Shown here: one piece after another, positions 57,696 to 60,353 of the stretch
Numbering within the stretch: position 1 is the stretch's first letter
Layout: each line of letters opens with the position of its first letter
Origin: the human T2T-CHM13v2.0 reference genome, Homo sapiens
Reading direction: 5' to 3' (one strand)
Assembly: GCF_009914755.1 (NCBI RefSeq)
Contig: NC_060943.1
DNA length: 64,000 nucleotides
Program-made: the position numbers and the translations under genes
The notes under the pieces: generated by a model
What the model was told of the DNA's origin: nothing
Database searches by the model: none
The model's input: only the letters and a program-made list of their open reading frames with translations

Positions 57696-58413
57696 TGACC
57701 TCGTGATCTACCATTATATATATGTATATATATGCACCTTGGGTCTGAAGGAAGGGTCCAAGGCCGAGAGAGGCCTGCAGTGCTTCCCAGACTTTTCCAC
57801 AGCAGAAGCCCTCACCCTCAACAGGGATAATATACCCATAGGCAAGTCCAGGGTCAGCAGAATTGGCTGCTTGGCCCTAGGCCAGCAGCCTGGACACAGG
57901 CACTCCAGCTAAGGGATTGCTGTCTTGGTGCCCCTGGGAGCCATTCCTGCCCCCAAAGGCACACTGGTGGGAAAGCCCTAGGATGACCCGTGCCAAGAGG
58001 ACAAGCAAGGACCAAGCTGTGGGCAAGCCAGAGGTCAAATGGAGGCTGAGGAGAGGCTGGAGAAGTGGTGGTGGTGGGGGGCAGGTGGAAGGACAGAGGG
58101 TGCCAGGCATCTACAGACACTGAGCGCCCCTGAGGGGTCAGGCCTGAGACAGGCAGGGAAGGGTGGAGTTAGACCTCTGCAAGAGGCTATGTTTGAACCC
58201 TGTGAGCAGAGTTGAGGTTAGACTTCAGAAGGAAAAAGAAAAGCACAAGGCCAGCTGATTCTCTCTGAAGAGTGGACTTTGGGATACCTTTCCCAGGAAC
58301 CCCCATCCCACTCCCTCTGCCCTTTACTCTCCACCACGCACACAGCTCCCCAGGGGACCAGGCCACCCTGGACCTTGCTACTTCCTGCTCCTTGCAGCCA
58401 TAGCTCAGAGACG

Positions 58414-59468
58414 ATGGAACTGTGGAGGCAGCTGAATCAGGCTGGACTGGTGCCTCCGGGGCTGGGCCCACCCCCCCAGGCCCTGAGGGAGGTCTCCCCA
58501 GTGGAAATCCCTGGTCAGACCCTCAGGACTGCAGGGGCAGACACTGGAGGTGCCTGCGATAGTCTGCTGTGGATCAGGGAGGAGCTGGTGAGTGAGGGGT
58601 TTGGAAGGGAAAGAGAAAGAGAGGAAATGAGAATGAATGGAAATGAACAAAAATAGAGAAGGCCAGAGATCGAAAAACAGAATCTGAGAGATAGAAGCAG
58701 AGACATGAGAGGCATGTACAGACACCGAGAGACAGACATAGAGTGAGGGACGGGAACAGAGGTGGGGACAGGGAGATCCCAAAAGAGAGGGACAGAGGTG
58801 GGAAGCAGAGACTGAGAGCAGGAACAGAGATGGAGAGACAGACTGAATTTGAGAAAGTTGGGGAGGGCAGAGAGAGGGCAAGCGAGAGAAAGAGAGCCAA
58901 AGGCAGGGGCAGAGAAATGGCAACACATAAAGACAGAGAGACAGGGGCATGGAAAGACAAAAAATAAATGGGGACAGAGACAAAGGGAAACAGGGACAGA
59001 TATAGATAAGAGAGGGAGGAGACAGAGAGAGAGAAGTCAGGGACAATGAAATGGAGAGACAAAGAGAAGAGTTAGAGATCAAGAGACACTCTGAGAAGCA
59101 GGAAGGCAGTTAGGGTCCATGGGCACAGTGAGGACCCTGCCCAGGCGCTGTGGCCAGGACATGAGTTGGGACCTGCTCTCACCCAGGTCCTGGAGAGACC
59201 CCTTGCTCTCTGGGGTGGCATCCCTGTGACGTCCCCTTCCTACTGGCAGGGGAACCTGCGCCGAGTGGATGTCCAGCTGCTGGGACAGCTGTGCAGCCTG
59301 GGGCTGGAGATGGGGGCGCTGCGGGAGGAACTGGTCACCATATTGGAGGAGGAGGAGGAGAGCAGCAAGGAAGAGGAGGAGGATCAAGAGCCCCAGAGGA
59401 AGCAGGAGGAGGAACACCTGGAGGCCTGCCCAGCCCCACATCCACCTGACTTTGAGATGATGATCTGA
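58414..59468 (+). CDS. ERICH4: Glutamate-rich protein 4 (C19orf69), 130 aa; join(58414..58587,59250..59468)
   Basis: ACGATGG start (MELWRQLNQAGLVPPG), donor CTG|GTGAGT at 58587, acceptor ggcag|GGG at 59250 (phase 0), acidic tail EEEEESSKEEEED...DFEMMI*. Confidence 0.93.
58600..59100 (+). repeat. GA-rich purine low-complexity tract filling the ERICH4 intron
   Basis: Recurrent gacagaga/gagaga motifs with few pyrimidines. Confidence 0.75.
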
Positions 59469-59789
59469 GGCTCTGCCAGTGGATTTAGATTGACATACAA
59501 ATGAGATGCAAATGTATGTAAAGGAGAAGGGAGATTTGCAGGTCAAAGCAGATGTGGAATCAAGTATACCCCTTTAGTAAGTGCTTTCTCTGAAGGTGCC
59601 TGCAATGATATTTAGGCATTGGCCTGTGAGCTATGAGTGTGTTTGCAGATGACATGAGGATGTGTTTGGAGGTGATGTGGGAGGTTGTAGAGAAGTTGCA
59701 GGTGCTTTCGCAGATGAGCCTCAGGTGTGCTGCTGAGATGGGGATCTCTGCAAATATGCTGGTGATGCATACAGATGCGATTTCAGATC

Positions 59790-60353
<564 letters not shown>

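What the first reader, a model, noticed from the sequence alone, without database searches (positions are those of the whole stretch)
58552..59330. ERICH4 looks like an unrecognised LURAP1/FAM89/FAM167-type (MRCK-adaptor) helix protein
Seen: the spliced product reads CDSLLWIREEL|GNLRRVDVQLLGQLCSLGLEMGALREE, an amphipathic helix with the pattern L-x2-[LI]R-x-E[LM]-x2-LR-x2-D-x2-LL-x-QL-x2-L, flanked by Pro/Gly-rich and acidic, probably disordered arms. Knowledge (from memory): FAM89B/LRAP25 has [25 protein letters not shown] and FAM167A has a similar WLRKEL-x-EMRLQDQQLARQL. LURAP1/LRAP35a and LRAP25 use this region to bind MRCK (CDC42BPA/B) kinases. I also recall a phase-0 intron directly after RKEM/RKEL in those genes, the same place as the only ERICH4 intron (REEL|GNL). 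Inference: this function-less 'glutamate-rich' gene may be a tissue-specific MRCK adaptor.
Basis: partly seen in the sequence, partly recalled or inferred. Interest (0 to 1): 0.8.

Follow-up and report, generated by a model that had tools for sequence, protein, structure and literature searches.

The report
ERICH4 carries the MRCK-adaptor helix motif
The small, poorly understood human gene ERICH4 contains the same intron-split helix that three known adaptor proteins use to bind MRCK kinases, which gives it a testable function that has not yet been tested.

Summary
ERICH4's select transcript splices WIREEL (exon 1) to GNLRRVD (exon 2) across a phase-0 intron. The product is one confident helix (AF2, residues 45-113) between low-confidence arms.

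LURAP1, LURAP1L, FAM89A, FAM89B, FAM167A and FAM167B all have a phase-0 intron at the same motif residue. So does AARD, though its exon 2 is only inferred.

The kinship signals are weak one by one but agree:
- Pfam hits run both ways, below threshold (ERICH4 to LURAP E=0.0027; LURAP1 to DUF4530 E=1.5e-4).
- 52 of 70 ERICH4 orthologues hit LURAP.
- hhalign gives P=2e-5 against LURAP and 4e-5 against FAM167; 0 of 200 column shuffles reach either score.
- Language-model neighbours are FAM89B/A, FAM167B/A and AARD.

A 2025 PNAS paper shows that FAM167A (DIORA1) binds the MRCK KIM through this helix, and that R124A/E126A/D134A abolishes binding. These residues map to human ERICH4 R55, E57 and D65.

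Caveats:
- Residue 55 is Trp in 64 of 70 orthologues.
- The Pfam cut-off is not met.
- MRCK binding could not be tested here.

No paper in the library searched links ERICH4 to MRCK or LURAP1. Verdict: new member of a known kind. Homology is likely; the function is inferred.

The parts
58414..58587 (+). ERICH4 coding exon 1 (residues 1-58). It has a conserved N-terminal segment (M1, E2, W4, Q6, L7, A10-L12, L17, G18, P21, A23, L24 in at least 90% of 70 orthologues), a low-confidence Pro/Gly-rich linker, and the first 14 residues of the helix.
   Evidence: (Pfam DUF4530 positions 1-58)
58552..58587 (+). First half of the motif (A47-L58), ending WIREEL. R55 (58576-58578) and E57 (58582-58584) are the equivalents of DIORA1 R124 and E126. 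E57 and L58 are each kept in 69 of 70 orthologues. Residue 55 is W in 64, R in 5 and L in 1 of 70.
   Evidence: PMC12519202 section 7
58588..59249 (+). The only intron of the select transcript: phase 0, donor GTGAGT, acceptor CAG. It sits at the same motif residue as the intron of LURAP1, LURAP1L, FAM89A, FAM89B, FAM167A, FAM167B and AARD. It is purine-rich (80% A+G over its first 513 bases).
59250..59330 (+). Second half of the motif (G59-E85), starting GNLRRVD. L61, R62, D65 (59268-59270, the equivalent of DIORA1 D134), Q67, L68, L69, G70, Q71, L72, C73, L75, G76 and L77 are invariant or kept in at least 90% of 70 orthologues. Leucines 61/68/75/82 have heptad spacing.
59331..59414 (+). C-terminal part of the predicted helix. 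L86-x-x-I89-x-E91 (59331-59348) is followed by a Glu-rich tract. It fits the PP2A-B56 LxxIxE pattern; binding was not tested.
59445..59465 (+). Conserved C-terminal heptapeptide P124-I130. D125, F126 and I130 are kept in 70 of 70 orthologues; P124 and E127 in 69. Residue 129 is T in 67 of 70 and M in the three apes. It is a candidate docking motif with no known partner.
59187..59249 (+). Extra 21 codons used by the predicted isoform XM_054319461.1 (alternative acceptor at 59187). They are inserted in frame exactly where the motif is split.

Best explanation
ERICH4 is a diverged member of one vertebrate family of short, mostly disordered adaptor proteins: LURAP1/LRAP35a, LURAP1L, FAM89A, FAM89B/LRAP25, FAM167A/DIORA1, FAM167B and probably AARD. 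The only element they share is a leucine-repeat amphipathic helix. It is encoded across a phase-0 intron that falls right after the [RK]-x-E-[LM] turn.

In three family members this helix is the part that binds the kinase inhibitory motif (KIM), a helical stretch in the coiled-coil region of MRCK (CDC42BP) kinases. By inference, ERICH4 residues about 47-85 pack on the MRCK KIM in the same way, with E57 and D65 (and R55 in apes) as polar contacts. D65 sits in a core heptad position.

The rest of ERICH4 would then bring a partner or set the location. That covers the acidic tract with an LxxIxE-like site and the invariant C-terminal heptapeptide, in tissues where ERICH4 is expressed (one paper reports co-expression with APOB/MTTP in liver or gut).

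Shown here: the motif, the intron, the helix and the statistical kinship. Taken from papers: MRCK binding by the relatives. Inferred: that ERICH4 binds MRCK, and what follows from that. My estimate is about 0.85 for homology and about 0.5 for MRCK binding.
For: 1. Intron. All eight human genes have a phase-0 intron directly after the E-[LM] of the motif, and D lies 7 residues into the next exon in all eight (exon ends and starts). The junctions of LURAP1, LURAP1L, FAM167A and FAM167B agree with database proteins P0087, P0094, P0208 and P0306.

2. Pfam, each protein against all 24736 families. Human ERICH4 hits only its own DUF4530 and LURAP (E=0.0027; residues 39-81 = model 9-51). Pongo LURAP1 hits only LURAP and DUF4530 (E=1.5e-4; 29-91 = model 22-83). 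LURAP is hit by 52 of 70 ERICH4 orthologues at E<=1, and the next family by 7 of 70. DUF4530 is hit by 52 of 112 LURAP1/1L, best E=3.3e-5.

3. hhalign, local script. ERICH4 (70 sequences) vs LURAP1/1L (112): P=2.1e-5, prob 76.8%, 47-83 = 55-91, ungapped. Vs FAM167A/B (110): P=4e-5, prob 70.3%, 19-85 = 83-154. For comparison, LURAP vs FAM167 gives P=2e-4. Column-shuffled templates reach the observed score 0 of 200 times in both cases; reversed templates score 16.6 and 12.7 against 38.1 and 36.0.

4. ERICH4 HMM at Z=20000. E<=0.1 for 94 of 120 LURAP-set and 77 of 120 FAM167-set proteins. At E<=1, 0 of 1200 shuffled and 0 of 120 reversed decoys are hit in each set.

5. Atlas feature search. The nearest clusters are FAM89B 0.91, FAM89A 0.91, FAM167B 0.89, FAM167A 0.86 and AARD 0.85. 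With the helix alone they are FAM167B 0.79, a LURAP-bearing cluster 0.77 and AARD 0.76.

6. Structure. AF2 helix 45-113 in ERICH4 and 53-102 in LURAP1. The helix starts are offset by 8, as in the hhalign register.

7. Function of relatives. DIORA1 aa 104-157 binds MRCKB KIM, the region was aligned with the KIM-binding motifs of LURAP1 and LRAP25, and the R124A/E126A/D134A triple mutant loses binding (PMC12519202, section 7 read in full). Numbering was checked: W122 L123 R124 E126 L127. LURAP1 binds MRCK through its leucine-rich repeats (PMC5677176, passages).

8. Constraint. The helix core and the C-terminus are the most conserved parts of ERICH4.
Against: - ERICH4 does not reach the Pfam LURAP gathering score (18.1 vs 25 bits). 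LURAP1 does not reach that of DUF4530 (22.3 vs 28.1).
- The platform's own hhalign run gives only prob 38%, E=3.3e-4 over 29 columns. Global hhalign finds nothing.
- The shared element is a 37-residue leucine-rich helix, the kind of sequence that yields false profile hits. LURAP proteins also hit DUF4988 (68 of 112) and ATG16 (42 of 112) weakly.
- Column shuffling destroys helical periodicity, so it is a lenient null.
- Atlas scores of 0.9 are reached by 4-10% of shuffled proteins.
- The Arg of the hot-spot triple is Trp in 64 of 70 ERICH4 orthologues. The three DIORA1 mutations were tested only together.
- ERICH4 has near-invariant glycines (G70, G76, G80) where the others have large residues.
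- FAM89 could be compared only as two human sequences; no orthologue profile was built.
- AARD exon 2 was picked with a filter that required D at +7, so its D is not independent evidence.
- No MRCK interaction of ERICH4 was predicted or found in print.
Confidence: 0.55

Rival explanations
1. ERICH4 is homologous but retargeted. It descends from the same helix family but no longer binds MRCK. Its helix now pairs with itself (a leucine-zipper homodimer) or with another coiled-coil protein. Its working parts would then be the acidic LxxIxE-like site (PP2A-B56) and the invariant C-terminus.
For: - Trp replaces the hot-spot Arg in 64 of 70 orthologues.
- ERICH4 has its own invariant C73 and near-invariant G70 and G76 in the helix.
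- There is heptad leucine spacing at 61/68/75/82.
- L86-x-x-I89-x-E91 plus EEE fits the B56 consensus read in PMC10970375.
- PMC9913820 states, citing GeneCards, that PPP2R5A is one of ERICH4's few known interactors.
- No paper in the library links ERICH4 with MRCK.
Against: - E57 and D65, two of the three residues mutated in DIORA1, are each kept in 69 of 70 orthologues.
- ERICH4 is as similar to the known binders as they are to one another across families: 11-13 of 38 identities against 8-18.
- LURAP1 has Lys, not Arg, at the hot-spot position, so some variation there is tolerated.
- P4 of the B56-like site is I or L in only 34 of 70 orthologues and F in 29. AF2 also places the site inside a helix, whereas, as I recall, such motifs bind extended.
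Confidence: 0.3
2. The resemblance is chance or convergence. Two unrelated leucine-rich amphipathic helices happen to look alike, and the intron match is coincidence.
For: - All sequence scores are below the curated family thresholds.
- The aligned stretch is short (29-37 columns for LURAP).
- Leucine-repeat helices attract spurious matches, for example ATG16 and DUF4988 for LURAP.
- The Atlas method gives scores of 0.9 to 4-10% of shuffled queries.
Against: - Of 24736 Pfam families, each protein's only non-self hit at E<=10 is the other's family.
- 52 of 70 orthologues repeat the LURAP hit, against 7 of 70 for the next family.
- The intron falls at the same residue and phase in eight of eight genes. 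For a 130-codon gene with one intron that is roughly 1 in 390 by position and phase, my own estimate, and it is independent of the sequence score.
- Decoys never score.
- The Atlas neighbours are the very families predicted beforehand.
Confidence: 0.1

Closest known systems
LURAP1 / LRAP35a and LURAP1L (Pfam LURAP, PF14854)
   Same: - One confident central helix in a largely disordered protein.
- The same motif, split by a phase-0 intron at the same residue.
- 13 (LURAP1) and 11 (LURAP1L) of 38 identities.
- Pfam hits in both directions.
- hhalign P=2.1e-5.
- LURAP1 binds and activates MRCK through its leucine repeats and bridges it to MYO18A (PMC5677176 and PMC9954052, passages).
   Different: - ERICH4 is 130 aa against 239 and 225.
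- It has no Ser-rich tail and no C-terminal T-F-L PDZ ligand.
- It scores below the family cut-off.
- It has a poly-Glu tract and a different conserved C-terminus.
- It was found only in placental mammals, whereas LURAP1L hits include marsupials and reptiles.
FAM167A / DIORA1 and FAM167B (Pfam FAM167, PF11652)
   Same: - The same split motif and intron.
- 12 and 13 of 38 identities.
- hhalign P=4e-5 over 67 columns.
- W53 in ERICH4 matches W122 of DIORA1.
- The residues needed for KIM binding (R124, E126, D134) align with human R55, E57, D65.
   Different: - No Pfam FAM167 hit for human, mouse, sloth or tenrec ERICH4 at E<=10.
- PF11652 is not among the 25 most-matched families for the 70 orthologues; 28 families matched in all.
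- ERICH4 lacks the DIORA1 C-terminal segments 157-183 and 184-214 that bind CNH and C1-PH. At most the KIM contact would be shared.
- R55 is Trp in most orthologues.
FAM89B / LRAP25 and FAM89A
   Same: - The same split motif and intron.
- 11 and 12 of 38 identities.
- Top Atlas neighbours at 0.91.
- LRAP25 is reported to link MRCK to LIMK1 (PMC9954052 and bioRxiv 2022.03.11.483953, passages).
   Different: - Only the two human genes could be compared; no orthologue profile was built.
- The conserved N-terminal FAM89 region has no counterpart in ERICH4.
- The primary LRAP25 paper was not held.

Membership tests
Pfam DUF4530 (PF15039), the ERICH4 family | Score over the curated cut-off of 28.1 bits | tested here: met
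   193.5 bits, E=1.1e-57, residues 1-111. All 70 of 70 orthologues match.
Pfam LURAP (PF14854) | Score over the curated cut-off of 25 bits | tested here: not met
   18.1 bits, E=0.0027 for human; E=0.13 for mouse; none for sloth or tenrec. 52 of 70 orthologues match at E<=1, best 8.9e-4. ERICH4 is a sub-threshold relative, not a formal member.
Pfam FAM167 (PF11652) | A match to the model, which starts 3 residues after the intron and runs to the C-terminus | tested here: not met
   No hit at E<=10 for 4 ERICH4 proteins. PF11652 is not among the 25 most-matched families of 70 orthologues. The similarity is confined to the helix.
KIM-binding leucine-repeat adaptors (LURAP1, LRAP25/FAM89B, DIORA1/FAM167A) | A helix with [LI]-[RK]-x-E-[LM], then x-x-[LM]-[RQ]-x-x-D-x-x-[LI]-x-x-Q-L | tested here: met
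   Human ERICH4 fits every position. AF2 shows a helix at 45-113. In 64 of 70 orthologues the [RK] position is W.
KIM-binding leucine-repeat adaptors (LURAP1, LRAP25/FAM89B, DIORA1/FAM167A) | A phase-0 intron directly after E-[LM] of the motif | tested here: met
   8 of 8 human genes. AARD exon 2 is inferred with a biased filter.
KIM-binding leucine-repeat adaptors (LURAP1, LRAP25/FAM89B, DIORA1/FAM167A) | Statistically supported profile similarity of the helix | tested here: inconclusive
   hhalign P=2.1e-5 and 4e-5, prob 77% and 70%. The platform run gives prob 38%. 0 of 200 shuffles reach the score. Decoys score 0 of 1200. This is good for a 37-residue helix but is not a database-wide HHpred.
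KIM-binding leucine-repeat adaptors (LURAP1, LRAP25/FAM89B, DIORA1/FAM167A) | The three polar residues whose joint mutation abolishes KIM binding in DIORA1 (R124, E126, D134) | tested here: inconclusive
   Human has R55, E57, D65, so all three are present. Across 70 orthologues E is kept in 69 and D in 69, but R in only 5 (W in 64).
KIM-binding leucine-repeat adaptors (LURAP1, LRAP25/FAM89B, DIORA1/FAM167A) | Physical binding to the MRCK KIM region | not testable with these tools
   The two-protein predictor is off. There is no PDB relative. No paper holds ERICH4 together with MRCK.
PP2A-B56 LxxIxE ligands | [LMFI]xx[ILV]xE with acidic residues at P7-P9, in an accessible region | tested here: inconclusive
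   Human L86, I89, E91 plus E92-E94 fit the consensus. P4 is I or L in 34 of 70 orthologues and F in 29. AF2 puts the site in a helix. Binding was not tested; the PPP2R5A interaction is known only second-hand.

The most novel reading that the evidence does not exclude
Eight human genes form one old family of MRCK-KIM ligands: LURAP1, LURAP1L, FAM89A, FAM89B, FAM167A, FAM167B, AARD and ERICH4. The family is defined by a leucine-repeat helix split by a phase-0 intron. Each member couples the kinase to a different partner through its own tail.

ERICH4 would be the placental, gut/liver-enriched member. It would dock on MRCK with residues 47-85 and bring PP2A-B56 through L86-x-x-I89-x-E91 plus the Glu tract, and a further partner through its invariant C-terminal heptapeptide. 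That would put a kinase and a phosphatase on one scaffold at the enterocyte cortex.

This reading also predicts that the four members with no reported MRCK binding (FAM167B, FAM89A, LURAP1L, AARD) bind MRCK.
Probability: 0.2. Interest if true: 0.8.

Novelty: new member of a known kind. Interest (0 to 1): 0.62.

Why it matters
MRCK kinases control actomyosin contractility and cell motility. How they are steered to substrates is thought to depend on small adaptors that bind the KIM, and only three are described: LURAP1, LRAP25 and, since 2025, DIORA1.

Placing ERICH4 in that group has three consequences:
- It turns a gene with no reported positive function into one with a direct, cheap test: co-IP with the published KIM fragment, plus E57A/D65A mutants.
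- It suggests why ERICH4 is tissue-restricted.
- It shows that a split motif plus its intron can be used to list the whole family, including FAM167B, FAM89A, LURAP1L and AARD.

[quoted passage not shown] The family link found here argues otherwise.

Tried and rejected
- The genome-wide search of the human reference with the ERICH4 profile found only ERICH4's own two exons at E<=10. There is no second copy, and exon-sized pieces of the relatives are too short for that test.
- The PDB sequence search with the ERICH4 profile gave 0 hits at E<=1. I did not run fold search, because a single helix would give meaningless matches.
- The first local hhalign used an aberrant marmoset isoform (P0084) as master and gave prob 50%. 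I redid it with P0087. Global-mode hhalign gave no alignment, so only the helix is related.
- The genome search with PF14854 found LURAP1 and LURAP1L exons but not FAM89A/B or LURAP1 exon 1. I cut these out by gene coordinates instead. L011 did not hold LURAP1 exon 1; it is in L018.
- The A1 search (LURAP plus FAM89 exon 2 pieces) listed only LURAP1/1L in its best 120 of 928.
- I considered a similarity between the N-terminus of ERICH4 and the first leucine repeat of LURAP1. The DUF4530 model reaches LURAP1 residue 29 and the HMM alignments to FAM167A reach ERICH4 8-17. Confidence there is low, so I make no claim.
- I considered an origin by whole-genome-duplication paralogy with FAM89B (neighbourhoods). 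I did not pursue it.

Papers:
- Not held, known only from reference lists or titles: Tan 2008 (Cell), Lee 2014 (JBC) and Visser 2024 (Atherosclerosis).
- SI Fig. S6A of PMC12519202, the authors' motif alignment, is closed. It could show whether they saw further family members.
- Interactome supplements that might list ERICH4 partners could not be seen.

What was searched in print:
- 'ERICH4' gave 27 papers, of which 25 were listed. None has it in the title and one has it in the abstract.
- ERICH4 + MRCK gave 0.
- ERICH4 + LURAP1 gave 0.
- ERICH4 or C19orf69 + LxxIxE gave 0; the one paper listed holds only the two gene names.
- The mixed search listed 20 of 138 papers, none with ERICH4.
Full report
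WHAT IS THERE

ERICH4 lies at window 58400-60009 on the + strand. The RefSeq select transcript NM_001130514.3 has two exons.
- The exon 1 coding part, 58414-58587, gives 58 residues ending WIREEL.
- Exon 2 starts at 59250 with GNLRRVD and ends with the stop at 59466-59468, giving 72 residues.
- The protein has 130 aa and equals database protein P0001, human 'glutamate rich 4'.
- The intron is phase 0 with donor GTGAGT and acceptor CAG.
- The merged annotation start 59187 belongs to a predicted isoform that adds 21 residues in frame at the junction.
- The finding's coordinates 58552-59330 are residues 47-85.

SHAPE AND CONSTRAINT

AlphaFold2 with 70 orthologues predicts one long helix, 45-113. 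Mean pLDDT is 93-97 in the 10-residue blocks from 51 to 90. There is a short N-terminal helix (2-9) and low confidence elsewhere.

Among 70 full-length orthologues, all placental mammals, the invariant or nearly invariant residues cluster in four places:
- the first 24 residues;
- the helix core: L51, L52, W53, E57, L58, L61, R62, D65, Q67, L68, L69, G70, Q71, L72, C73, L75, G76, L77, L82, E84, L86;
- the start of the Glu tract (L90-E93);
- the last seven residues.

Leucines 61/68/75/82 are seven apart. L58, D65, L72, M79 and L86 take the other core position, which makes this a leucine zipper with an Asp in the core.

THE RELATIVES' GENES

I cut the seven candidate genes out of the same reference genome and located their exon ends and starts.
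- Each has a coding exon that ends in L-[RK]-x-E-[LM]: LKMEL in LURAP1, LRQEM in LURAP1L, LRKEM in FAM89A and FAM89B, LRKEL in FAM167A, LRREL in FAM167B and LRAEL in AARD.
- The donor is GTGAG in every case.
- The next coding exon has [LM] at +3 and [RQ] at +4 (not in AARD), D at +7, [LIM] at +10 and Q at +13.
- The junctions of LURAP1, LURAP1L, FAM167A and FAM167B agree with database proteins.
- Those of FAM89A/B rest on the splice signals and the open frames.
- AARD exon 2 was chosen with a filter that required D at +7, so it is the weakest.

With the register fixed by the intron and no gaps, ERICH4 shares 13, 11, 12, 11, 12 and 13 of 38 residues with LURAP1, LURAP1L, FAM89A, FAM89B, FAM167A and FAM167B. 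It shares 7 with AARD. Identities across the three established families run from 8 to 18. Shuffles of the ERICH4 38-mer reach the observed score in 0 of 20000 trials for five of the six, 1 of 20000 for FAM89A and 176 of 20000 for AARD.

SEQUENCE STATISTICS

- Against all of Pfam, human ERICH4 matches its own family DUF4530 (E=1.1e-57). The only other match at E<=10 is LURAP: E=0.0027, 18.1 bits against a cut-off of 25, residues 39-81 on model 9-51.
- The reverse also holds. Pongo LURAP1 matches LURAP and otherwise only DUF4530: E=1.5e-4, 22.3 bits against 28.1.
- Across families, 52 of 70 ERICH4 orthologues hit LURAP at E<=1, and the next family is hit by 7 of 70.
- 52 of 112 LURAP1/1L hit DUF4530 with the best non-self E-value (3.3e-5). 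DUF4988 (68 of 112) and ATG16 (42 of 112) are also hit weakly, which shows how readily such helices attract noise.
- Profile-profile comparison in a script gave P=2.1e-5 (prob 77%) for ERICH4 47-83 against LURAP1 55-91 without gaps. It gave P=4e-5 (prob 70%) for ERICH4 19-85 against FAM167A 83-154. For comparison, LURAP against FAM167 gave P=2e-4. The PNAS authors aligned DIORA1 with the LURAP1 and LRAP25 motifs to pick their mutants.
- The platform's own hhalign run was weaker (prob 38%, E=3.3e-4, 29 columns), and global mode found nothing.
- 0 of 200 column-shuffled templates reached the observed scores, and reversed templates scored 16.6 and 12.7 against 38.1 and 36.0.
- An ERICH4 HMM at proteome scale (Z=20000) gave E<=0.1 for 94 of 120 LURAP-set and 77 of 120 FAM167-set proteins. 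At E<=1 it hit 0 of 1200 shuffled and 0 of 120 reversed decoys in each set.
- The Atlas feature search, which uses no alignment, returned FAM89B, FAM89A, FAM167B, FAM167A and AARD as nearest clusters, at 0.91 to 0.85. With the helix alone it returned the same kinds at 0.76-0.79. These scores are only leads, but the families are exactly those predicted.
- AF2 of LURAP1 shows the same architecture: one confident helix at 53-102. Its start is offset by 8 from that of ERICH4, as in the alignment.

WHAT THE RELATIVES DO

- LURAP1/LRAP35a is described as binding and activating MRCK through its leucine-rich repeats and MYO18A through a C-terminal PDZ ligand (PMC5677176, passages; PMC9954052, passages).
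- Its site on MRCK was mapped to the KIM (bioRxiv 2022.03.11.483953, passages).
- LRAP25/FAM89B links MRCK to LIMK1.
- PMC12519202 (abstract, passages, and section 7 in full) shows that FAM167A/DIORA1 binds MRCKA/B/G.
- In that paper its helical segment 104-157 binds the KIM fragment of MRCKB (797-893). The authors aligned this segment with the KIM-binding motifs of LURAP1 and LRAP25, and R124A/E126A/D134A abolishes KIM binding.
- FAM167A exon 1 has 127 residues, so R124 and E126 are the R and E of LRKEL, and D134 is the D at +7.

In the intron-fixed register and in hhalign these residues are ERICH4 R55, E57 and D65. That paper does not mention ERICH4 in its main text. [quoted passage not shown]

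POINTS AGAINST

- Residue 55 is Trp in 64 of 70 orthologues. Arg occurs only in human, orang-utan, gibbon and two unrelated species. LURAP1 has Lys there. The DIORA1 residues were mutated only together, so the weight of this one is unknown.
- ERICH4 has near-invariant glycines and a cysteine in the helix that the others lack.
- It also lacks their second modules. It has no FAM167 Pfam match, so the C1-PH and CNH contacts of DIORA1 are not expected, and it has no T-F-L.
- No formal family threshold is met.
- I could not build a FAM89 orthologue profile.
- I could not run any prediction of the complex.

OTHER THINGS SEEN

- L86-x-x-I89-x-E91 followed by Glu residues fits the PP2A-B56 consensus [LMFI]xx[ILV]xE with acidic P7-P9 (PMC10970375, passages). 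One paper says, citing GeneCards, that PPP2R5A is among ERICH4's few known interactors.
- The C-terminal heptapeptide is invariant apart from T129M in apes.
- ERICH4 is reported as co-expressed with APOB and MTTP in liver or gut. A 2024 paper whose title says it is not involved in intestinal lipoprotein assembly and secretion is cited there (PMC13226660, passages). I could not read that paper.

VERDICT

Kinship of the ERICH4 helix with the LURAP/FAM89/FAM167 helix is likely (about 0.85), because weak sequence signals agree with an independent gene-structure character. MRCK binding is a reasonable inference (about 0.5) but is untested. In the library searched, no paper holds ERICH4 together with MRCK or LURAP1. 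This makes ERICH4 a new member of a known kind, of moderate to good interest, because it can be settled with one co-IP.

Noticed in passing
window 59331-59348 (L86-E91) and the Glu tract to about 59414: L-x-x-I-x-E followed by Glu residues fits the PP2A-B56 docking consensus with acidic P7-P9. P4 is I in 31, F in 29, M in 5 and L in 3 of 70 orthologues. A paper states second-hand that ERICH4 interacts with PPP2R5A. No paper in the library pairs ERICH4 with LxxIxE.
   Followed up: partly
window 59445-59465 (P124-I130): The last seven residues are almost invariant in 70 placental orthologues: D125, F126 and I130 in 70 of 70. Residue 129 is Thr in 67 and Met only in human, orang-utan and gibbon. 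This looks like a C-terminal docking peptide with an unknown partner.
   Followed up: partly
window 58576-58578 (codon 55, AGG): Residue 55 is Trp in 64 of 70 orthologues and Arg in 5: three apes, Onychomys and Nycticebus. Arg is the state found in FAM89, FAM167 and LURAP1L, so the ape change moves ERICH4 towards the family motif.
   Followed up: partly
window 59187-59249: The predicted isoform XM_054319461.1 uses an upstream acceptor and inserts 21 residues in frame exactly at the split of the motif. This would interrupt the helix.
   Followed up: no
window 58588-59249: The ERICH4 intron is strongly purine-rich on the + strand: 80% A+G over its first 513 bases, against 53-57% in the flanks. 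It is made of GA-rich, repeat-like sequence.
   Followed up: no
G000 gene neighbourhoods; L007, L012, L016, L006: FAM89A lies near CAPN9, PCNX2 and SIPA1L2, and FAM89B near CAPN1, PCNX3 and SIPA1. FAM167A is next to BLK and FAM167B next to LCK. These pairs sit in paralogous blocks. I did not examine whether ERICH4, which lies between DMAC2 and the CEACAM cluster, belongs to such a block.
   Followed up: no
proteins P0001-P0083: All 83 listed ERICH4 relatives are from placental mammals, including xenarthrans and afrotherians. None is from a marsupial, bird or reptile, whereas LURAP1L and FAM167A hits include such species. The search works on exact words and withheld 35 candidates, so absence elsewhere is not shown.
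   Followed up: partly
L010:319-639 and L010:4657-4770 (AARD): AARD exon 1 ends in LRAEL before a phase-0 GTGAGA donor. A candidate 38-residue last exon has D at +7 and Q at +13, giving 145 aa, the length of the Atlas AARD cluster representative. AARD may be a distant eighth member, but it shares only 7 of 38 identities with ERICH4.
   Followed up: partly
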